Of a stretch of DNA of 64,000 nucleotides, positions 40,706 through 50,684 are shown piece by piece. A program made the translations under genes and the position numbers. The notes beneath the pieces are model-generated. The model had not been told where the DNA came from and did no database searches. It saw only the letters and a program-made list of their open reading frames with translations. The stretch's first letter is position 1. Every line of letters starts with the position of its first letter. The stretch comes from Hydrurus foetidus (lineage: Eukaryota), in assembly GCA_900617105.1 (NCBI GenBank), contig UYFQ01000001.1:2480001-2544000 (forward strand). The letters are read 5' to 3'.

Positions 40706-41245
40706 ATGCAGTACGCTACTCCGCCGCCTCAGCCCCACCAAGCTTTTGACCAGCGCACGCTGACTTCACTCGATAGTCAGCCGTACGGTTGCATCAAACT
40801 CGACAAAACCGGGCGAGTGCTGGAATTTAATATTGCCGCGTCAGCCGTGCTGGGTGTTCGCGCCAAGGACGCAATTGGCAAGCACTTTTTTACCGAAGTT
40901 GCCCGGTGTGCCGACAACCCCGAGTTTTACGGCCGATTTAAAACCGCCATGGCGGGCACTGGCGTGTTGAACAAGGTTATTGACCACCGGTTTGTTATGT
41001 CTGAAGCGGCGCAAGCGATGGGGGGTGTTTTATCGATTGACGTGCGGGTGCATATGTTTTCCAGCACTGACACGGCTGGCCTGCCGGTGGTGTGGGTGGT
41101 GACCCGCAAAAAAGCAGACGCTCTGACAACTGCTTTCAGCAACAGCCGGCCGCCAGACGCCAAACCGCCTGCGGCACCCGTTGCACAGCCAGCCCAGCGC
41201 CGACCGATTCAGAGCATTTCCTCTTCGTTTGACGTGCTGATGTGA
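40706..41245 (+). CDS. Photoactive yellow protein (PYP)-like PAS protein, divergent
   Basis: LD..PYG.I.LD..G, IGKHFFTEVARC, PEFYGRFK, VRVHM, WV match PYP signature segments; Pro-rich C-terminal tail. Confidence 0.85.
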   Translation: MQYATPPPQPHQAFDQRTLTSLDSQPYGCIKLDKTGRVLEFNIAASAVLGVRAKDAIGKHFFTEVARCADNPEFYGRFKTAMAGTGVLNKVIDHRFVMSEAAQAMGGVLSIDVRVHMFSSTDTAGLPVVWVVTRKKADALTTAFSNSRPPDAKPPAAPVAQPAQRRPIQSISSSFDVLM

Positions 41246-41358
41246 TTGGGTCGCGCTTCGGCTTTTTTTGTCATTTTTAGGCACTAAATCAGCACCTGGC
41301 GCGCTGAATACGGGCGTAAGCAGCTATTAATTCTATAGTACTGACTTGGGCAAACTAT

Positions 41359-42324
41359 TCACACCACTCGACTTTCAGCTAACTTCAAGCGACTTCCCAA
41401 TTGGTCTTTTAGGTAATCAACGAACAATTGCACCTTGAGTGGCTTGCCCTTGCGCAAAGCCACCACGGTGTACACCGCCTTGGTTTCCTCCAGCTCTTGC
41501 ATAACTCTAACCAATTGACCGCTCGCTAAGTGGTCAGCGCAGTACTGGTACTTCAACTTGCCGATGTGTTCGCCACTCAGCACGGCCAGCAGCGCTACCT
41601 CTGGCTCGTTGGTGGGCAGCTTGGCTAAGGCGTAAACCATTTCGCCTACGGGGTTGGTCAGTAGAATTTGCTCATTTAGCTCGTAGTCATAACTGACAGC
41701 AGTAATAGGCAGTTGGGCCAGGGCTTGTATGGACGCGGGTGTGCCGTGCTTTTCTAAAAAGCCCGGCGTCGCCACAAACCCCATGCGACATTCACCCAAC
41801 TTGGACACCACCGCTCGCTCTTCCAGCGGCATTCCAATGCACACGCCCACATCAAAATCATTGTTAGCCATTGAAAAAGGTTTCGAGTCCAGTTTCAGCG
41901 ATATCTTTAAATGGGGGTGTAGCACGCCGAAAGAAATCACGAGGTCACCCACAAAACGGCGGCCAATGGCAGGCGGGCACAACACTCGCAACTGGCCTCG
42001 CACTTCCACACTGTAGCGGCTCATGGTTTGGCGCCCGGCTTCAAGCGCGGTCATGGCCTTGAGCACGAAGTGCAGGTAAGACTGCCCAGCTTCGGTCAAA
42101 CGCAAGCTGCGCGTGTCACGCTCAATCAGCCGCACACCGAGGCCTTCTTCAAGGTCATCCAACTTGCGGCTGACGGTGCTGGTGTTGACACCCAATGACC
42201 TCGCAGCCAGGGAGATGCTGCTTTTTTCAACAACAACCGAAAAGTACAGCGCGTGAATGGCGTCAAGTGGCGAGAAGACTTGTACGTCGCTGCCAGCGGG
42301 CTTGGTTTTGCGGGAAGACTGCAT
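41359..42324 (-). CDS. LysR-family regulator, copy 1 (CrgA/DmlR-like)
   Basis: AARSLGVNTSTVSR..LE..LGVRLIERDTRSLRLTEAG. Confidence 0.92.
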   Translation of the reverse strand: MQSSRKTKPAGSDVQVFSPLDAIHALYFSVVVEKSSISLAARSLGVNTSTVSRKLDDLEEGLGVRLIERDTRSLRLTEAGQSYLHFVLKAMTALEAGRQTMSRYSVEVRGQLRVLCPPAIGRRFVGDLVISFGVLHPHLKISLKLDSKPFSMANNDFDVGVCIGMPLEERAVVSKLGECRMGFVATPGFLEKHGTPASIQALAQLPITAVSYDYELNEQILLTNPVGEMVYALAKLPTNEPEVALLAVLSGEHIGKLKYQYCADHLASGQLVRVMQELEETKAVYTVVALRKGKPLKVQLFVDYLKDQLGSRLKLAESRVV

Positions 42325-42547
42325 GGGCGATTAGGTCAGCACAGCGTGCGGTTAAGAGCAGATTTATTCAAGATGAATGTGGCTATATCGTAGTAGGCTG
42401 ATATAAAAAGTTAGTTTCTAAGTAAGCTTTAAATTGAGGAGCGGACAAGGGTTTGAAGTTTATTGAATTGCTTACCGTGCCGTTACCGACAGCAAATTGC
42501 CCGCTGGTTGTCCGTGACGATTACATACACAAAATTTGAGGTGTTTT

Positions 42548-42564
42548 TGCAAAACAGTCGTGCA
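42548..42564. promoter_or_regulatory. Putative LysR operator
   Basis: TGCA-N9-TGCA (TGCAAAACAGTCGTGCA), conserved between the duplicated intergenic regions. Confidence 0.55.
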
Positions 42565-42697
42565 GAATGCTTATTTGAAGACAAAAGTGACAATTAGTAA
42601 CTTCAATCAATGGCTACATTTGACACTCGATCACTTTTGCGCCGTGGCTGGTATTTTTGCCATGCGCTGTGCAGGTCAAATCCGAGGCATTCTGTTA

Positions 42698-43195
42698 ATG
42701 ATTTTTGCAAAAACTAACCTGGGTCGCATTGCGGCCTTTGACCCCCAATCTGCCCTGCCTGCGCCGCAAAAAGCGCAGACTGACGCTCTAGCTGTTTCAG
42801 CCAATGACGACGTCGAACAACCTGCTCGCTTTCTCCAAATGTCATTGGTGTCAAATAATCGCGAAGGCACGATGACTGCATCGCTGGCGACATTGCTGCA
42901 GCCCGACAGCGCGCCAGAATTTGCTGCGTCTGGCTCTTCACACTCAGCCGAGTACCAAGACCGCCTGCAATCTGCCAAAGACAGCTTGATCGGTTTTGTA
43001 CTCGCGAACTTGCGGCAAGAGGCCAACGTGGTGCTGCAAGCGGTCAGTCAAATTACGCACAACGACCAGCTAAAAGCCACCATCATTGCGGTGCTGAGCA
43101 TGGCCAATCACGCCAGCCAGACCGACCCGAGTCAAACCCGCGCGTTAAATCAAGCCTTGCTGCAGTTGGCTGACGAAGAGTGGGAGCAAAAATAA
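42698..43195 (+). CDS. Hypothetical protein, internally deleted paralogue of 44664-45269
   Basis: MIFAKTNLGR..AFDPQS, TM.ASLA.LL.P, YQDR...AKDSL, QLKATI shared with the paralogue. Confidence 0.7.
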   Translation: MIFAKTNLGRIAAFDPQSALPAPQKAQTDALAVSANDDVEQPARFLQMSLVSNNREGTMTASLATLLQPDSAPEFAASGSSHSAEYQDRLQSAKDSLIGFVLANLRQEANVVLQAVSQITHNDQLKATIIAVLSMANHASQTDPSQTRALNQALLQLADEEWEQK

Positions 43196-43297
43196 GGGCT
43201 TAGGGCTTTTTTCAGGCAACGTTATTGCTGGATTAGCCCTTTAGCCTAGCAAATTCAGGTGCAAGCAGCTATTAATAGCATAGCTAATTGAAGGTCG

Positions 43298-44272
43298 TTA
43301 ACCCGCCCCAACCGCCAGATCTTCAAGCGCCTTCAAGTCGCTGCCCAAGTAGTTTTTTAAAAAATCAACAAACAGCTGCACCTTCAGCGGTTTGCCTTTT
43401 CGCAGCGCCACCACGGTGTAGATGGCTTTGGTGATTTCCAGCTCAGGCATGACCTTGACTAGCTGCCCGCTGGCCAGCTGGCTGGCGCAGTACCAGTACT
43501 TCATGCGGCCAATGTACTCACCGCTTAGCACGGCGCGCAGCGCTACCTCTGTGTCGTTGGTGGGCAGCTTGGTAACCGCATAGGCGATTTCACCTTTAGC
43601 ATTGGCCAGCACCACTTGTTCATGCAGATGGTAGTCGTAGCCGACTTCGGTGATCGGCAGTTTGGCCAGCGCGTAAATACTGTCGGGGGTGCCGTACTTT
43701 TTCAAAAAATCGGGGGTGGCCACAAAGCCCAGGCGTAACTCACCCAGCTTGGACACCACTGCGCGGTCTTCTACCGGCATACCCAGGCAGATGGCTACGT
43801 CAAAGTCGGTGTCGGCCAGCGCAAAGGGTTTGGAGTCCAGCTTTAACGACACCTGCAAATGCGGGTGCAGCACGCCAAAAGCAACCACCAGGTCGGCCAC
43901 AAACTGCCGTCCAATGGCGGGCGGGCACAACACCCGCAACTGGCCGCGCACTTCCACGCTGTAGCGGCTCATGGTTTGGCGCCCAGACTCTAAAGCGCCG
44001 ATTGCCTTGAGCACGTAGTGCAAATACGACTCGCCGGCCTCAGTCAGGCGCAGATTGCGGGTGTTGCGCTCAAGCAAGCGCACGCCGAGGTTGGTTTCCA
44101 GCTCATCAAGGTGACGACTAACGGTGCTGGCGTTCACGCCCAGTGATTGCGCCGCCCGGGTAATGCTGTTTTTCTCGGCAACCACTGAAAAATGCAAAGC
44201 GCGCGTTGCATCCAGCGGCGAAAAAGATTGCAGTTCGCTACCGCTGGGCTTGGGTTTACGTAGGGGGAGCAT
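43298..44272 (-). CDS. LysR-family regulator, copy 2
   Basis: Collinear paralogue of copy 1 (identical MSRYSVEVRGQLRVLCPPAIGR and YTVVALRKGKPLKVQLFVD). Confidence 0.92.
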   Translation of the reverse strand: MLPLRKPKPSGSELQSFSPLDATRALHFSVVAEKNSITRAAQSLGVNASTVSRHLDELETNLGVRLLERNTRNLRLTEAGESYLHYVLKAIGALESGRQTMSRYSVEVRGQLRVLCPPAIGRQFVADLVVAFGVLHPHLQVSLKLDSKPFALADTDFDVAICLGMPVEDRAVVSKLGELRLGFVATPDFLKKYGTPDSIYALAKLPITEVGYDYHLHEQVVLANAKGEIAYAVTKLPTNDTEVALRAVLSGEYIGRMKYWYCASQLASGQLVKVMPELEITKAIYTVVALRKGKPLKVQLFVDFLKNYLGSDLKALEDLAVGAG

Positions 44273-44503
44273 GAGGCAATAAAAATAACAAAACACAAAA
44301 CTGGCGACCGTTCCAGAAGCACTGCACTGCCGCTTGAACGTCGTTCTTCTAAACGCAAAACTCTGACCGTCCGACTCTGTTCGCGCTGCACAAAATAACT
44401 GCACACCAAAAGAGGAAAATCGCATAAAACCAGTGATCTTGGAGACACACTAAATAGCAAAGTTCAATTAGACCAACAAGACACTGGCATACGCGGCATC
44501 ATC

Positions 44504-44520
44504 TGCAAAACAGTGTTGCA
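44504..44520. promoter_or_regulatory. Putative LysR operator
   Basis: TGCAAAACAGTGTTGCA. Confidence 0.55.
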
Positions 44521-44663
44521 AGCTTTCAGATTGCCAGCTGAAGTAAGCACCAGTAACATCAAATGAATGATGCAAATGCAGCACTGGTAACGATGGCAAG
44601 CTGACTGTGATTCATACTTTTTAGCCCATGCTTACAGGCGCGCAGTACCAAAGAACTTACTCA

Positions 44664-45269
44664 ATGATTTTTGCTAAGACCAACCTCGGCCGCATGCTGG
44701 CCTTTGACCCACAATCCAACTTGTCACGCCCCGAAAAAGCCCTGTTGCGGCTGATTGACGGTAAAACCCGCTTGAGCACATTAACCAGCACGATGGACCC
44801 TGCGGATTGCTCCATTCAGCTGATCGAAGCGCTGCTTGATAAAGAGCTGATTCAGCTGGCCAAAGCAGAGCCTGAATTGGTTGGCGCGTCGGTAAAAGAA
44901 GCTAGCTCAGAGCCCAGCAGGCCGCGCCATCTGGCGCTGGTGTTGCCGCACTATGACCAAACCATGCCGGCATCATTGGCCGCGCTGCTCGAGCCCGAGT
45001 CAATGGCTGATTTCAGTGCGACTGCACCGCATTCGTTTGATTACCAAGACCGCATGGATACCGCCAAAGACAGCCTGGCTACGTTCGTGCTAACTTACTT
45101 GCCAGACGACGCCGCGCTGATGCTGCAGGAAGTCAATCAAATTTCCAACATTGAGCAGCTCAAAGCCACCATTGTTACGGTGCTGAACATGGCCAAGCAG
45201 GCCAGCGAAGTTGATGCGGACCAAACCCAGGCATTGAGTCAAACGTTGTATCAACTGTGTGAAGAGTAG
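44664..45269 (+). CDS. Hypothetical protein with KT..G..L....LL.LIDG N-terminal domain (possible winged helix)
   Basis: Clean ORF; paralogue upstream; fold assignment is inference. Confidence 0.75.
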   Translation: MIFAKTNLGRMLAFDPQSNLSRPEKALLRLIDGKTRLSTLTSTMDPADCSIQLIEALLDKELIQLAKAEPELVGASVKEASSEPSRPRHLALVLPHYDQTMPASLAALLEPESMADFSATAPHSFDYQDRMDTAKDSLATFVLTYLPDDAALMLQEVNQISNIEQLKATIVTVLNMAKQASEVDADQTQALSQTLYQLCEE

Positions 45270-45419: not shown

Positions 45420-46187
45420 TCAGTGCGCCCAGCGCTGCTGCGCAATCTCCAGCAGCCCGTCAAAAATCAGGCTTTCTACCAGCTCCACCTCGATCGACAT
45501 GCTGGGCGCCATCTTCCAGCCTGCGCCGCCGGTCATGATGCAAATCGGCGCCTGGCCGCAGCGCTGAGCCAGGTTGTCTGCCATGCGCTGCACGGCCCCG
45601 GCAATGGCGAAGGTACCGCCGCTGGTCAACGCGTCGCTAGTATTGGTGGGGAAGTCTTGCACCTCGCCAGTGGGCACGTGCAGGCCTGCGGTGCCAGACT
45701 CCAGTGCGCGCAGCATGATGCCGTGGCCCGGCAAAATAATGCCGCCTAAAAACCGGCCGGTCTCGTCAATGGCTTCCACCGTAACGGCTGTGCCCACCAT
45801 GACCACAATGCAAGGCTTGGCCGCACCACTTGCAAGTACGCGGTGGCGTGCACCAATCATGGCTACCCAGCGGTCAGCACCCAGGCGCGCCGGAAAGTCG
45901 TAGCCATTGACCACGCCCGCCTCAGCGGCGCCAGGCACTACCCAGCGGGGCACGGCTTCCCACAAATCAAGCTGCTCGACCACGCGGCGCCGAATGGCGT
46001 CACCGGCCACGATGCAGCCCAAAATATGCTGCGGCGCGGCCAGCTCGCGCCACTCGCCCTCGGCCAGCTTGTCGATGTTTTCTAAAAACACCGCGCCTTG
46101 CGCCAGCAGCACCGCGCCGCGGCTGGGCGATGCGTACTGCGCCCATTTCAGGCGGGTGTTGCCAACATCAAGCGCTAGGAAAGTCAT
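45420..46187 (-). CDS. coaX: Type III pantothenate kinase
   Basis: [32 protein letters not shown]. Confidence 0.93.
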
Positions 46188-46241: not shown

Positions 46242-46910
46242 TCAGATGAGTCCGAACCAGCATGCGCGCTGTATGGCGGCTAATTTGTTGTCAACCTTGA
46301 GCCGACTCATAGCGTTCGCCAGGTGAAAGTTGACCGTTCGCTCGCTGCAAAAAAGATGCTCGCCACTTTCCCGGGCGGTCAGGCCTTTAAACGCCAGTTG
46401 CAAGCACTCCAGCTCACGCGGGCTCAATGGGTTACGCGCCTCAGCCAGTGCACGCTTGAGCAGCGGCCAAATGTTAAGCGCCGACCAGGCCAGTAGCGCA
46501 GCTTCACTGCGGTCAACCCACTGGCGCAGACTGAACAAATAGCATTCAAACGCCCGGCCCACGGCCAAAGGAAACGCAATGCGCACCACACTTTGGTAGC
46601 CATGCGCAAGCCACAACCTGCGCCAACGGCTCATGTTTTCAAATGCGGTTTTTGAAATGTCTTGCCACGCCACCAAGGGTGCGTCTGAGTCGCGCCAGGG
46701 TGCGCCAAAGTCGCGGCTCTCAGCCAGGGCCTCCGCCGCATCCAGCAAGCGTGGCGGGTGCAGCGCCAGCACCAGCCGGTCCTCTTGCCCGCCAAAGGGG
46801 TCAGGGCCGAGAACCATCAGGGCCTCTACCGAAAATTCACGCAAACCGCAAAGCCAGTCGTTGACCACAGCGTCAGCATTCACACTGTCAAAGTTAGCAG
46901 GTAGTTGCAT
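46242..46910 (-). CDS. LuxR-family regulator with a divergent autoinducer-binding-like domain (LuxR solo)
   Basis: QS-type HTH LSPRELECL...G.T..E...SERTVNFHLANAM.RL; N-terminus keeps P..W and HG but lacks the W/Y/DP AHL-binding residues. Confidence 0.85.
   Translation of the reverse strand: MQLPANFDSVNADAVVNDWLCGLREFSVEALMVLGPDPFGGQEDRLVLALHPPRLLDAAEALAESRDFGAPWRDSDAPLVAWQDISKTAFENMSRWRRLWLAHGYQSVVRIAFPLAVGRAFECYLFSLRQWVDRSEAALLAWSALNIWPLLKRALAEARNPLSPRELECLQLAFKGLTARESGEHLFCSERTVNFHLANAMSRLKVDNKLAAIQRACWFGLI
46883..46902 (+). promoter_or_regulatory. lux-box-like site upstream of the sensor kinase, inside the luxR 5' end
   Basis: CACTGTCAAAGTTAGCAGGT = NN-CTG-N10-CAG-GT. Confidence 0.55.
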
Positions 46911-46945
46911 CGGTTTTGATTAAAAAGAACAAGGACAATGGGCAA

Positions 46946-48316
46946 ATGGGAAATCAAAAAACAACGAGCCGCTTACTTTGGATCCGCAGGATCGAGGCAT
47001 CTAAATTGCTTACAGCAACTTCAAAATTTCGGTTTGGCGTGAAACCCAAGCTCCAATGGTTGCGGGAAGAAGTTGTCAATGCGCCGTTTGAACCTATTTT
47101 GCATCCTTCGTCACGGAGACTGTGGTGGCTGGGCTTGTCCATTTTTGCGGGCAATGCCGTGTTCGCATGGATTTGGTCGGTCTGGCTGCCGCAGCCTTAT
47201 GAAAATTTGGCATTACGGTTCATCGCGAGCGCTTTGGGCTTGGCTTTGATGGTGCCCAAAATCAATCATGATCCCGACAGCCTTTTGGCCCAGCGCGTTT
47301 TCAGCATCGTGTTCTGGCTGGAGCTGCCGGTATTTTTCACCTGGATGTATCTTTGCAATAGCGCCAGTCCGGTGTGGCTGGCTTCGACAGCCTCGATGCT
47401 GTTGATTTACTACCTGGTAACCGACTGGCGGTTGGCCTCGCTTGGCACGATCACTGGATTCCTTGTGTCGTTGATCGCGTTCGCGCTAGCGGGACCCACG
47501 GCAGCGCCTTTTCAAGACGGGCAAATCGCTGTCCACGCAGTCGTGTTCGCGTTTGTCTGGTTCAGCGCACTGGTTCTTAATCTTTCTTCAGCAAATTTGC
47601 GACGCACCCATCTGTCGCACACGCTTGCAACCATTGGCATCATGGCCCATGAATTACGCACACCCTTGTCGACCGCAGCGCTTCTTGGGGATGCCATGCA
47701 GATGGAAGTTGCGCGCTGGCCAAGTAGTCCGCTCGCGCCGCAAATAGAAAAACTTGCCGTTCGACTGCACCGATTGGTGCGTAACATGAACCATCAGATT
47801 GACACGCAAATTACCAACGCAAAACTTCGGGAACTGCCGCGCCCCACGGAACTGGTTTCAGCTACTCGTTTGGTTGCAGATGCAGTCGCCAATTATCCAT
47901 ACGCTTGCAGCCGTCAAGAGCGCTGCGTGCGGGTTGTTAACCACGATGAGTTCAATTTCAGGTCGTGCTCGGTGCAATTCTCGCAGGTGCTGGACAACTT
48001 GATTAAAAACGCGTTGCACTCGCTGATGGCTGCTGATTCCAGTTACGCCCCCGGGGCATTGCGTATAGAAATACGCGCACATAAAAACGACAAAAACTAC
48101 GGGACGATAATTGTTGAAGATGATGGTATGGGCATCAAGCCTGAAGTACTGCTGCAAATTTTCAAACCCTTCTTTTCAAGTAATAAAGACACCGGGCATG
48201 GGCTGGGTTTGGCGTTTTGCCAACAGGTGGTGCGCAGTGCGGGTGGCAGCATTAGTGTGAAATCCAAGTTTGCGGTCGGGGCAACCTTCGTGATTGTGCT
48301 GCCAATCGCAAAATAA
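46946..48316 (+). CDS. cqsS: CqsS/LqsS-type alpha-hydroxyketone sensor histidine kinase (no receiver domain)
   Basis: About six TM helices with QPYENLALR, LPVFFTWM, WLAS; GIMAHELRTPL, DNLIKNA, DDGMGI, GHGLGLAFC; start uncertain. Confidence 0.85.
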   Translation: MGNQKTTSRLLWIRRIEASKLLTATSKFRFGVKPKLQWLREEVVNAPFEPILHPSSRRLWWLGLSIFAGNAVFAWIWSVWLPQPYENLALRFIASALGLALMVPKINHDPDSLLAQRVFSIVFWLELPVFFTWMYLCNSASPVWLASTASMLLIYYLVTDWRLASLGTITGFLVSLIAFALAGPTAAPFQDGQIAVHAVVFAFVWFSALVLNLSSANLRRTHLSHTLATIGIMAHELRTPLSTAALLGDAMQMEVARWPSSPLAPQIEKLAVRLHRLVRNMNHQIDTQITNAKLRELPRPTELVSATRLVADAVANYPYACSRQERCVRVVNHDEFNFRSCSVQFSQVLDNLIKNALHSLMAADSSYAPGALRIEIRAHKNDKNYGTIIVEDDGMGIKPEVLLQIFKPFFSSNKDTGHGLGLAFCQQVVRSAGGSISVKSKFAVGATFVIVLPIAK

Positions 48317-48359: not shown

Positions 48360-49346
48360 ATGACTTTCCCGCTCTACCGCCGTCCCGCCGCTGTCGTTTT
48401 TCTGGATGACGATCTTGACTATCTTGAGATGTTGGCCAACGTCATGCCGATGGAGTGGTTTGTCCGCCTGATGATTCGGCCAATTGCCTGCATTGAAATG
48501 CTCGTAGCTGAAATTGCATCGGCGGAGCTAGACATGTGGAAACAGCAAGAAATCATCAACCACTGGCGAGACGGCAGCGCGTTGATTCCGCAGATCCTTG
48601 CTTACTGGCGAGACGACGGGACATTGCGGTTCTCGTTGGCTCGGGTGTTAGTGGTGGACTACTCGATGCCGGCCATGAGTGGCCTGAGGGTTCTCAGTGA
48701 GCTGACGCAGTGGCCAGGATTACGTATCTTGTTAACAGGCCGGGCCGACGAGCAGCTTGCTGTGTCTGCATTTAACAGAGGCTCCATCCAGCAGTTCATA
48801 CCCAAGCAATCACCGGAAATCCGGCTGCGCCTGACTGCTGCCATCCAGCACCTGCTGCACAAACCAGACGCACGACATGAGCAAACCTGGCGCTCCACCT
48901 TGTCACGCGAGCAAAGCGCGCTGCTGAGTGACCCGACCATCGCGGGGTCGCTTGCGAAACTCGCCGCCGAGCAAAATTGGGTAGAGCATGTCGTTATCGG
49001 CGCCCCCTTTGGCGTGCTTGCCCTTGACACAGCCGCCAAGGTGGCTTGGCTTCAGCTGGAGCCTACTGACCGGCTAATTGAACTGGCGGAAATTGCAGAG
49101 TCTCAAGGCTGGAGTGCTGAGAACGTGCAGGATGTTCGCGCCGGTAAAAAACTCATTGATGCTGAGCTCCAGCTCGCCATTGGCAGCGCACAAAAACCAA
49201 GGCTGAAGGAAGCCTTCGTGATGGGCTCGGAAACAGCGCAGATATACGCAGCGCTGTTTGAGGTCAATCAAACGTTTTGCCCAAAACCCTCTGACAGCCA
49301 CCAAGACTTCATCACCAGCCAAAGTCACCGGCACATACAAGGTTAA
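48360..49346 (+). CDS. LqsR/JqsR-like response regulator with no recognisable DNA-binding domain
   Basis: Split receiver: VVFLDDD, long insert, VVDYSMPAMSG, LLTG, FIPK; between sensor and synthase. Confidence 0.82.
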   Translation: MTFPLYRRPAAVVFLDDDLDYLEMLANVMPMEWFVRLMIRPIACIEMLVAEIASAELDMWKQQEIINHWRDGSALIPQILAYWRDDGTLRFSLARVLVVDYSMPAMSGLRVLSELTQWPGLRILLTGRADEQLAVSAFNRGSIQQFIPKQSPEIRLRLTAAIQHLLHKPDARHEQTWRSTLSREQSALLSDPTIAGSLAKLAAEQNWVEHVVIGAPFGVLALDTAAKVAWLQLEPTDRLIELAEIAESQGWSAENVQDVRAGKKLIDAELQLAIGSAQKPRLKEAFVMGSETAQIYAALFEVNQTFCPKPSDSHQDFITSQSHRHIQG

Positions 49347-50596
49347 TTCAAACCTTGCCCCGCCCGGGCTCGTCGCGCGATGGGCCAGTCCCACGGTTTG
49401 ACGATTTGCGCAACTTCGCGGGCTGCTGCTTCTACGTGGTCTAGTTCCGAGTCCATCAAACCTGCATTCAGTGTCATGCGCATCATGGCCCGCTTGCTGC
49501 TGGTGGCCGGTGCGCAAAACATAGCCGAGAATACGTTACGCTCCTCAAGCCTGTCGCGCAGCACCATCGTGTCTGGTTCCGTACCAGATTCCAGCGCAAT
49601 AATTTGCTGGCTGCCCTGGTGAATTGGGTAGCCCAAATCTTCAAGGCTTTGGCGCAGTCTCAGGGTGTGAGAGTGCAGTCGCGTGCGTGCCATATCGCTA
49701 TTTTTAATGACTTCAAGAGTTGCCGTCAGCCCAGCAATTTCATGAGGCAACAAACTGGAGCTAAAGATATTAGGAAAACTCGTACAAAAAATGTAATGCC
49801 GAAGATGGGCTGGCGCACTAAAAAATCCGGCTCGCCCTGCGAATGCCTTTGCCAAACTAGCGGTGATGAAATGCACCCGATCGGAAACACCAAGCTCAGC
49901 ACACAGGCCTGACCCTTGAGGCCCGTGCGTTCCCAAAGAGTGTGACTCATCCACCAGAATCATGCACTCGCCTTGCTCAGCTACGTTCACCATTTCAACC
50001 AGCGGACACAACGCGCCTGTGGTGCTGTAGACCGAATCAACCACTACCAAACCTGGCCCGTGCTTGGCAATCATGCGAGCCAAATGGGTCGGATCGTTAT
50101 GTCGAAATGGGATAGAGGGCGCACGCGCTGCGTGCGCACCCTCCCAGAGTGAGGCATGCGCAAGGGTGTCAAGATAAACAGGGGTGCTCGCATCGGCGAT
50201 AGCTTGCAGTAAGCCGACGTTTGCCGTGTATCCGGATTGGCAGATAAATCCGTCGTCTTTGCTGATCCACGCTGCTAAAGCCATCTCTAGCGCGCGCGTG
50301 GGATGTTGATTGAGATGAAACACGCCGGACTGCACAACAAATTCATTTGCTTTGAGCAACGCATCCACTTGCGCCTGCACGATGCTCGGATGGCCCGTGA
50401 TGCCGAGATAGTCATTGCCATCCAGTCGAATTGCGTTGGGCCCCGGCACAACACCGTGCAGGACGAATTTACCGCCCCATTGCTTGTCCCAGCGTGGTGT
50501 GAAATCCCGCGCGATTCTGCTGGAAAGGCGTTTACCCAGTGGCGGATTCGCAAACGGCTTGGTGTCGAGAGATGATTTTTGGTCCAGTGCTTGCAT
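49343..50596 (-). CDS. cqsA: CAI-1/LAI-1-type autoinducer synthase (PLP-dependent AOS family)
   Basis: NDYL, QSGVF, QSGYTANVGLLQ, AHASLWEG, VDSVYSTTG, DESHSLG, SLAKAFAGRAG, FCAPAT; next to cqsS-like kinase. Confidence 0.92.
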   Translation of the reverse strand: MQALDQKSSLDTKPFANPPLGKRLSSRIARDFTPRWDKQWGGKFVLHGVVPGPNAIRLDGNDYLGITGHPSIVQAQVDALLKANEFVVQSGVFHLNQHPTRALEMALAAWISKDDGFICQSGYTANVGLLQAIADASTPVYLDTLAHASLWEGAHAARAPSIPFRHNDPTHLARMIAKHGPGLVVVDSVYSTTGALCPLVEMVNVAEQGECMILVDESHSLGTHGPQGSGLCAELGVSDRVHFITASLAKAFAGRAGFFSAPAHLRHYIFCTSFPNIFSSSLLPHEIAGLTATLEVIKNSDMARTRLHSHTLRLRQSLEDLGYPIHQGSQQIIALESGTEPDTMVLRDRLEERNVFSAMFCAPATSSKRAMMRMTLNAGLMDSELDHVEAAAREVAQIVKPWDWPIARRARAGQGLN

Positions 50597-50664
50597 GATG
50601 AGATTTCTCAGTTGGTTGATCGAATCCCCATTCAATGCGCACACACACCTCGACACGTGCCACC

Positions 50665-50684
50665 CCCTGTCAGAACTGACAGTG
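50665..50684 (-). promoter_or_regulatory. lux-box-like palindrome upstream of cqsA
   Basis: CCCTGTCAGAACTGACAGTG: CTGTCAG-AA-CTGACAG inverted repeat, CTG-N10-CAG, centre about 78 bp before the ATG. Confidence 0.7.

What the first reader, a model, noticed from the sequence alone, without database searches (positions are those of the whole stretch)
46242..46910. LuxR solo with a remodelled ligand pocket
Seen: the HTH keeps the QS-LuxR residues (RE..CL...G, SERTVNFH). The N-domain keeps the equivalents of TraR W85 (PLVAW) and G113 (AHG), but the segment that normally reads YPxxWxxxY..DP is HPPRLLDAAEALAESRDF, so W57, Y61 and the D70-P71 pair appear altered (alignment by eye). Inference: the ligand is not an AHL; the neighbouring CqsA product (hydroxy- or amino-ketone) is the obvious candidate.
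Basis: partly seen in the sequence, partly recalled or inferred. Interest (0 to 1): 0.7.

Follow-up and report, generated by a model that had tools for sequence, protein, structure and literature searches.

The report
DNA-binding output of hydroxyketone quorum sensing
This LuxR-family regulator sits inside a hydroxyketone cell-to-cell signalling cluster and has lost most residues that grip acyl-homoserine lactones; it likely binds a conserved palindrome in front of the signal-synthase and sensor genes, and likely acts as the DNA-binding output of the sensor-kinase relay rather than as the signal's receptor.

Summary
The gene is real: a 222-aa LuxR with a remote autoinducer-binding fold (AlphaFold pLDDT 94.7; top Foldseek hits TraR, QscR, RhlR, SdiA). 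It keeps 3/3 HTH residues but clearly only 1/6 AHL residues (W85). It lies divergent from a CqsS-type kinase, an LqsR-type regulator and cqsA. A lux-type palindrome (CTGTCA-N4-TGACAG) is conserved upstream of cqsA and inside luxR codons 4-9, each about 41-43 bp before a CAAT element. Direct sensing of the CqsA product is not supported. cqsA falls into allele classes that match the kinase's sensor domain (2 changes on its tree), not the LuxR N-domain (10 changes). All 48 of 351 family genomes with this LuxR have the LqsR-type regulator; 10 lack cqsA. Best reading: the kinase senses the ketone and the LuxR is the transcriptional output, likely set by the regulator (about 50%); the contact is untested. 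The scan noted this cluster and box before on other DNA. New here: the allele-class test, the intragenic box and the residue map.

The parts
46242..46910 (-). luxR-like gene, 222 aa: remote autoinducer-binding (GAF-like) N-domain plus LuxR HTH
46437..46883 (-). N-domain, residues about 10-158; only W85 of the six AHL residues clearly kept; R110 and E122 near-invariant
46245..46430 (-). LuxR-type HTH, residues 161-222, with E178/L182/G188 equivalents
   Evidence: Pfam GerE E 5.9e-16
46885..46900 (.). lux-type palindrome inside luxR codons 4-9 (one mismatch to the pattern); putative autoregulatory site and activation site for the kinase-regulator operon
   Evidence: synonymous codons fixed: Pro4 CCT 77/78, Phe7 TTT 77/77, Asp8 GAC 79/79, Ser9 AGY 75/75
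46934..46939 (+). conserved GACAAT element, putative -10 for the kinase operon, 6 nt before the likely ATG
   Evidence: promoter role inferred
46946..48316 (+). CqsS/LqsS-type membrane histidine kinase (PQPYENL motif, His245 of the listed ORF; frame open from 46916)
48360..49346 (+). LqsR-type response regulator, phospho-Asp100 kept, no HTH found (frame open from 48294)
   Evidence: (6sy9 E 4e-19, TM 0.68)
49343..50596 (-). cqsA/lqsA-type alpha-hydroxyketone synthase (likely start 50596; listed ORF runs to 50656)
   Evidence: NF005526 553 bits over cut-off 428; PDB 3hqt E 1.2e-93
50597..50629 (-). cqsA leader; in relatives a hairpin over the ribosome-binding site, weak in this copy
50630..50635 (-). 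TTGAAT (TTCAAT in most relatives), putative -10 of cqsA
   Evidence: promoter role inferred
50667..50682 (.). lux-type palindrome upstream of cqsA, exact match to the pattern, fits CTG-N10-CAG
45420..46187 (-). type III pantothenate kinase, constant downstream neighbour; used as a vertical-descent control, probably not part of the circuit

Best explanation
This is a quorum-sensing-LuxR-derived transcription factor with a degenerate AHL pocket that likely binds the two lux-type palindromes of the cluster and likely serves as the DNA-binding output of a CqsA-CqsS-LqsR hydroxyketone relay, not as the receptor that reads the signal. Shown: fold, residue losses, synteny, conserved boxes, co-occurrence and allele-class pattern. 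Inferred: CqsA makes a hydroxy- or amino-ketone whose chain differs by allele class; the kinase's membrane domain reads it and sets phosphorylation of the LqsR-type regulator, which has no HTH; the regulator then likely controls the LuxR, most simply by contacting its N-domain. The LuxR dimer would activate cqsA and the kinase-regulator operon from boxes about 52 bp upstream of the starts (positive feedback) and would damp its own gene through the box in its first codons.
For: (1) Fold and HTH of QS LuxRs. (2) A box with <=2 mismatches upstream of cqsA in 64 of 69 loci (54 with <=1), against 0 of 1000 control windows at <=1 and 44 at 2; at the luxR 5' end in 85 of 90; fixed spacing to CAAT. 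It fits the CTG-N10-CAG lux box quoted in bioRxiv 2023.03.31.535187 (passage). (3) The box follows the LuxR: strict pattern in 39 of 48 LuxR genomes against 51 of 303 others; three or more strand-matches in 30 of 48 against 6 of 303. It is absent in 9 of the 10 genomes with the regulator but no LuxR hit; the tenth, G509, has a distant LuxR. (4) 48 of 48 LuxR genomes have the regulator; 10 have no cqsA hit, one of them only 81% complete. Seven have luxR directly divergent from the regulator; 5 of 5 of those checked gave no CqsS-type sensor or cqsA hit. (5) In 64 sequences, cqsA distances correlate with the kinase sensor (r 0.86, partial 0.82) more than with the LuxR N-domain (0.58, partial 0.23). 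cqsA classes need 2 changes on the sensor tree and 10 on the LuxR-N tree (shuffled about 25); the AU test rejects one class as a LuxR clade. Class-diagnostic sites: sensor 5/171, LuxR-N 0/146. (6) The regulator folds like LqsR and has no Pfam HTH.
Against: No binding, contact or expression was measured. The direction of control is open: co-retention with the regulator is also expected if the LuxR merely transcribes it. Nine genomes keep the regulator with no hit to this LuxR (5 of 5 confirmed by profile), so the regulator does not need it. Genomes lacking the cognate kinase keep both genes, so their input is unexplained. The pocket-facing positions are more conserved than the rest of the domain, which fits a real ligand site as well as a packed core. 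The box consensus was derived from these loci, the genomes are related, and 9 of 48 LuxR genomes lack an exact strict match. The window count alone is modest (2 matches; 3 of 100 shuffles reach 2). Extra boxes elsewhere in genomes precede unrelated genes, so no conserved regulon emerged.
Confidence: 0.5

Rival explanations
1. The LuxR is an upstream activator: it binds the boxes and turns on cqsA and the kinase-regulator operon, either without a ligand or in response to another metabolite, and takes no signal from the regulator.
For: All box evidence fits equally. The box and GACAAT stay in front of the regulator when the kinase is gone. The regulator persists without the LuxR in nine genomes. 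Near-invariant R110/E122 could anchor a charged ligand (inference). Distant homologues occur with no regulator nearby (L112, L113).
Against: It leaves an HTH-less regulator without a transcriptional output. A stand-alone activator with further boxes could survive loss of the regulator, yet 48 of 48 keep it.
Confidence: 0.28
2. One reading: the remodelled pocket binds the CqsA ketone directly, perhaps loosely as to chain length, giving a second, cytoplasmic receptor; cqsA-less carriers are eavesdroppers.
For: A LuxR fold with hydrophobic, conserved pocket positions; the box at cqsA gives the classic autoinduction layout; cqsA lies next to it in 71 of 76 loci with at least 2.5 kb upstream.
Against: N-domains 98% identical sit beside different synthase classes that differ by 26-29% and at two acyl-pocket positions. 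A CqsS-type sensor that co-varies with the synthase is present. There is no relaxation without cqsA (residual -0.008, p 0.94; 14 versus 23 loci). Small pocket residues are replaced by bulky ones (G113 to V; further positions rest on recalled TraR pocket residues).
Confidence: 0.17
3. It is an AHL-sensing solo, or the boxes belong to another regulator and the gene is a passenger.
For: The box is of the general lux type; the HTH is close to RhlR/SdiA; 51 LuxR-negative genomes have at least one strict match.
Against: At most 2 of 6 AHL residues; no Autoind_bind hit in the window protein or in the family members among 55 representatives scanned (one hit, an outsider aligned only from residue 98). 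The box lies in the gene's own codons and disappears where the gene is missing.
Confidence: 0.05

Closest known systems
AHL-type LuxR receptors and LuxR solos (TraR, QscR, RhlR, SdiA, CepR2; PF03472 + PF00196)
   Same: Two-domain fold, HTH residues E178/L182/G188, C-terminal helix, lux-type palindrome.
   Different: No PF03472 hit; W57, Y61, P71 and G113 replaced, D70 uncertain; tied to a hydroxyketone two-component cluster. Surveys built on PF03472/IPR005143 (passages) would be expected to miss it.
Legionella Lqs system (LqsA, LqsS/LqsT, LqsR)
   Same: Synthase, CqsS-type kinase and LqsR-fold regulator with the phospho-Asp (review passages).
   Different: The described cluster is lqsA-lqsR-hdeD-lqsS with no LuxR (passage). 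Here a LuxR and two lux-type boxes are part of the cluster.
Vibrio CqsA/CqsS
   Same: Synthase and sensor motifs; specificity residues near the last transmembrane helix.
   Different: Vibrio signals through LuxU/LuxO/Qrr to TetR-type HapR/LuxR (passage); here there is an LqsR-type regulator and a true LuxR-family protein.
Janthinobacterium/Duganella JqsA-JqsS-JqsR
   Same: Three-gene betaproteobacterial cluster with a promoter motif at jqsA (passages).
   Different: Its motif is TTGA-N6/7-TCAA, and no cluster LuxR is mentioned in the passages seen; the N-domain query found this family in only one of the families sampled in 401 order-level genomes.
Sinorhizobium VisN/VisR (degenerate LuxR-type activators)
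   Same: Weak NCBIfam VisR match over residues 101-222 (E 6e-9, far below cut-off); activators with no known ligand (recalled).
   Different: Flagellar regulators of alphaproteobacteria (recalled); an analogy only.

Membership tests
QS LuxR family (structural) | C-terminal LuxR HTH with E178, L182, G188 | tested here: met
QS LuxR family (structural) | N-terminal autoinducer-binding alpha/beta/alpha fold | tested here: met
   Top 20 listed Foldseek rows are all QS LuxRs; QscR Z 12.9 (rmsd 7.0, 207 aligned); CepR2 ligand domain Z 11.5 (rmsd 3.4, 147 aligned), tied with a generic GAF at Z 11.2; Atlas 25 of 30 hits
AHL-binding LuxR / LuxR solo as surveyed | Pfam PF03472 hit | tested here: not met
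   (E<=1)
AHL-binding LuxR / LuxR solo as surveyed | W57, Y61, D70, P71, W85, G113 (list from PMC4338825, passage) | tested here: not met
   W85 kept; D70 uncertain; four replaced
AHL-binding LuxR / LuxR solo as surveyed | No cognate luxI | tested here: inconclusive
   None among the neighbours scanned; own genome not held; 0 of 5 related genomes over the PF00765 cut-off, and no control genome rang
AHL-binding LuxR / LuxR solo as surveyed | Binds a small-molecule signal | not testable with these tools
   needs ligand assays
QS LuxR family (function) | Binds a lux-box palindrome at target promoters | tested here: inconclusive
   Conserved boxes present and tied to the gene; binding not measured
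alpha-hydroxyketone (Cqs/Lqs) system | CqsA/LqsA synthase | tested here: met
   NF005526 over cut-off
alpha-hydroxyketone (Cqs/Lqs) system | CqsS/LqsS-type sensor kinase | tested here: met
   96% coverage, 26% identity to an unannotated Vibrio campbellii kinase next to cqsA, shared PQPYENL
alpha-hydroxyketone (Cqs/Lqs) system | LqsR-type response regulator with phospho-Asp | tested here: met
   Asp kept in 61 of 61
alpha-hydroxyketone (Cqs/Lqs) system | Production and sensing of the ketone | not testable with these tools
   needs chemistry

The most novel reading that the evidence does not exclude
A quorum-sensing LuxR has stopped sensing small molecules and been rewired as the protein partner of a phosphorylated LqsR-type regulator, joining a hydroxyketone two-component relay to lux-box transcription. 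Around this shared output, Polaromonas species swap matched synthase and sensor alleles (signal dialects) while the kinase core, regulator and LuxR descend vertically.
Probability: 0.35. Interest if true: 0.8.

Novelty: new variant of a known kind. Interest (0 to 1): 0.6.

Why it matters
How LqsR-type regulators, which show no HTH, reach DNA is not explained in the papers seen here. This cluster offers a named transcription factor, a defined binding site and harmless culturable hosts in which to test it. It would also add a LuxR subfamily that PF03472-based surveys miss, and predicts hydroxyketone signal dialects in abundant freshwater and glacier bacteria.

Tried and rejected
Complex prediction of LuxR with the regulator was not available: no verdict. 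N-domain-only profile alignment to seven AHL-type LuxRs gave nothing, so pocket numbering rests on the full-length alignment. No model coordinates were available, so pocket volume was not measured. No RNA holder listed; no reads were laid. The sigma-70 scan found no promoter at the boxes (2 sites, chance level) and called the cqsA box terminator-like; rejected because no gene ends there on that strand and the sequence and spacing, not just pairing, are conserved. RNAalifold found no consensus for the cqsA leader on a poor alignment. Extra boxes in 8 of 10 genomes gave no shared regulon apart from a ketoacyl synthase near the box in two genomes of one genus. NCBIfam had no model for the kinase sensor domain. 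The Comamonas LuxR solo of bioRxiv 2023.03.31.535187 was modelled on SdiA with Tyr63/Tyr71/Asp80 contacts (passages) and appears to be another protein; sequences were not compared. Literature searches listed no paper describing this LuxR; most subscription journals are not covered, no supplements were read, and a recalled 2020 Cupriavidus taiwanensis cqs paper was not found.

Full report
The gene and its fold. Window 46242-46910 (-) encodes 222 aa. Pfam finds only the LuxR HTH. A 73-sequence family profile ranks quorum-sensing LuxRs first in the PDB, with matches extending into the ligand domains of CviR and TraR. The AlphaFold model is confident (pLDDT 94.7). Foldseek's best rows are TraR, QscR, RhlR, SdiA, LasR and CviR. 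VIA-align gives QscR Z 12.9 and, for the N-domain, CepR2 Z 11.5, tied with a generic GAF domain at 11.2. The Atlas returns Autoind_bind clusters in 25 of 30 hits, with a shared-feature count typical of distant relatives. The protein is best read as a remote LuxR relative. The closest genome hits are Polaromonas at 99-100%, and the N-domain was found in only one family among 401 order-level genomes.

Residues. With TraR numbering anchored, the three HTH residues and W85 are kept, and W57 and Y61 become L55 and A59. The D70-P71 register is uncertain: D67 is present in 80 of 80 close orthologues. By beta-hairpin reasoning and recalled TraR pocket positions, V108, R110, E122, Y124 and F126 share the pocket face, which suggests a filled or reshaped cavity. 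This was not measured.

Neighbourhood. The gene is divergent from a histidine kinase and a response regulator, which converge on cqsA. The kinase matches over 96% of its length a Vibrio campbellii kinase beside cqsA and shares PQPYENL. The regulator's model matches Legionella LqsR (E 4e-19, TM 0.68) and has no Pfam HTH. Such lqsA/lqsS/lqsR clusters in Polaromonas are in print, without a LuxR in the passages seen (PMC3376566). Of 80 loci, 76 have at least 2.5 kb upstream; all 76 carry the regulator and 71 carry cqsA. In 351 genomes of the family, 48 have the LuxR N-domain (one weakly), 58 the regulator and 42 cqsA; all 48 have the regulator and 10 lack a cqsA hit. In seven of these, luxR faces the regulator directly. 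Five checked genome-wide gave no sensor or synthase hit. Nine genomes keep the regulator without this LuxR.

Binding site. Footprinting upstream of cqsA revealed CTGTCA-N4-TGACAG, which fits the CTG-N10-CAG lux box (bioRxiv 2023.03.31.535187, passage). The window has two copies, 50667-50682 and 46885-46900. The second lies in luxR codons 4-9, where synonymous positions are almost fixed (Pro4 CCT 77 of 78, against a median top-codon share of 0.65 and a maximum of 0.84 at 43 other conserved four-fold codons). Boxes with at most 2 mismatches occur in 64 of 69 cqsA upstream regions and 85 of 90 luxR 5' ends, mostly 41 and 42-43 bases before CAAT. Across genomes the strict pattern follows the LuxR rather than the regulator. 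The consensus was derived from these loci and the genomes are kin, so the counts overstate independence. If CAAT ends the -10 hexamer, the boxes centre near -52; no start site was measured.

Who reads the signal. Among 64 sequences with all five genes (the window and 63 of 80 loci), cqsA distances track the kinase sensor domain (r 0.86) and not the LuxR N-domain (0.58), which tracks panK, the kinase core and the regulator (0.83-0.87). Three main cqsA classes (28, 23 and 9 members; 4 others left out of the count) need 2 changes on the sensor tree, against 9-13 on the LuxR-N, regulator, kinase-core and panK trees. An AU test rejects one class as a clade of LuxR sequences. Class-specific residues fall at two of nine acyl-pocket positions of CqsA and beside the CqsS chain-length gatekeeper (positions from PMC3285556, passages). 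Pairs with 98% identical LuxR N-domains carry different classes. The pocket shows no extra divergence in 14 cqsA-less loci compared with 23 cqsA-positive ones; six of the 14 are cqsA-less only at locus level. That the classes make different molecules is inferred. The data point to the kinase as the specific receptor and leave loose binding by the LuxR possible.

Mechanism and verdict. The most likely wiring runs from ketone to kinase to phospho-regulator to LuxR to the boxes, with positive feedback on cqsA and the kinase operon and autorepression at the intragenic box (0.5). The main rival has the LuxR upstream, responding to something else or to nothing (0.28). Direct ketone sensing is third (0.17). 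Phosphorylation and dimerisation of LqsR are established in Legionella (PMC5289986, passages). Protein partners of LuxRs are known (PMC13043044, passages), though a response-regulator partner did not appear in the passages seen. Other papers seen as passages only: PMC4338825, PMC10134790, PMC5080296. No supplements were read; the tables of the LuxR-solo surveys might list members. Two earlier notes of this scan reached a similar reading on other genomes (consulted after my reading was formed; they are not independent support). A word search found no note on allele classes. Verdict: real, a new variant of a known kind, interest 0.6.

Noticed in passing
window 46946-47620 and 49343-50596; loci L002-L080: cqsA and the kinase sensor domain form matching allele classes that cut across the species tree, although the kinase core and regulator between them descend vertically; likely signal dialects.
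   Followed up: yes
window 50597-50629 (-); e.g. L017:3126-3160, L019:1619-1647: The cqsA leader folds into a hairpin over the ribosome-binding site in 60 of 62 distinct relatives with varied sequence; z -3 to -5.6 in 6 of 7 hand-picked examples, but only -0.23 in the window.
   Followed up: partly
L110 (CP087967.1), L141 (NC_007949.1), L111 (NC_008757.1): Plasmid copies of the luxR-kinase-regulator module without cqsA lie beside BREX genes (pglZ, brxC) or a ThiF-family gene; in L110 the kinase is split, in L141 the HTH gene is short, in L111 no kinase sensor was found. Possibly density sensing linked to phage defence.
   Followed up: no
window 40706-45269: An insertion between panK and the wax-ester synthase gene, seen only in the three closest loci: a photoactive-yellow-protein-like PAS gene (below cut-off) and two paralogous LysR plus unknown-gene pairs.
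   Followed up: no
proteins P0150, P0160, P0176, P0177, P0181, P0188, P0199, P0208, P0212, P0218, P0255: Longer homologues (317-354 aa) carry an extra N-terminal domain of about 120 aa with no Pfam match.
   Followed up: no
window 46934-46948: The GACAAT element lies 6 nt before the likely kinase ATG, and about 8 nt in many relatives, suggesting a leaderless transcript.
   Followed up: no
L089 (G546), L093 (G702), L129 (G643): Rearranged clusters: three regulators around one kinase beside luxR; two kinases flanking cqsA with a luxR fragment; a box left at the end of the regulator where cqsA is missing.
   Followed up: no
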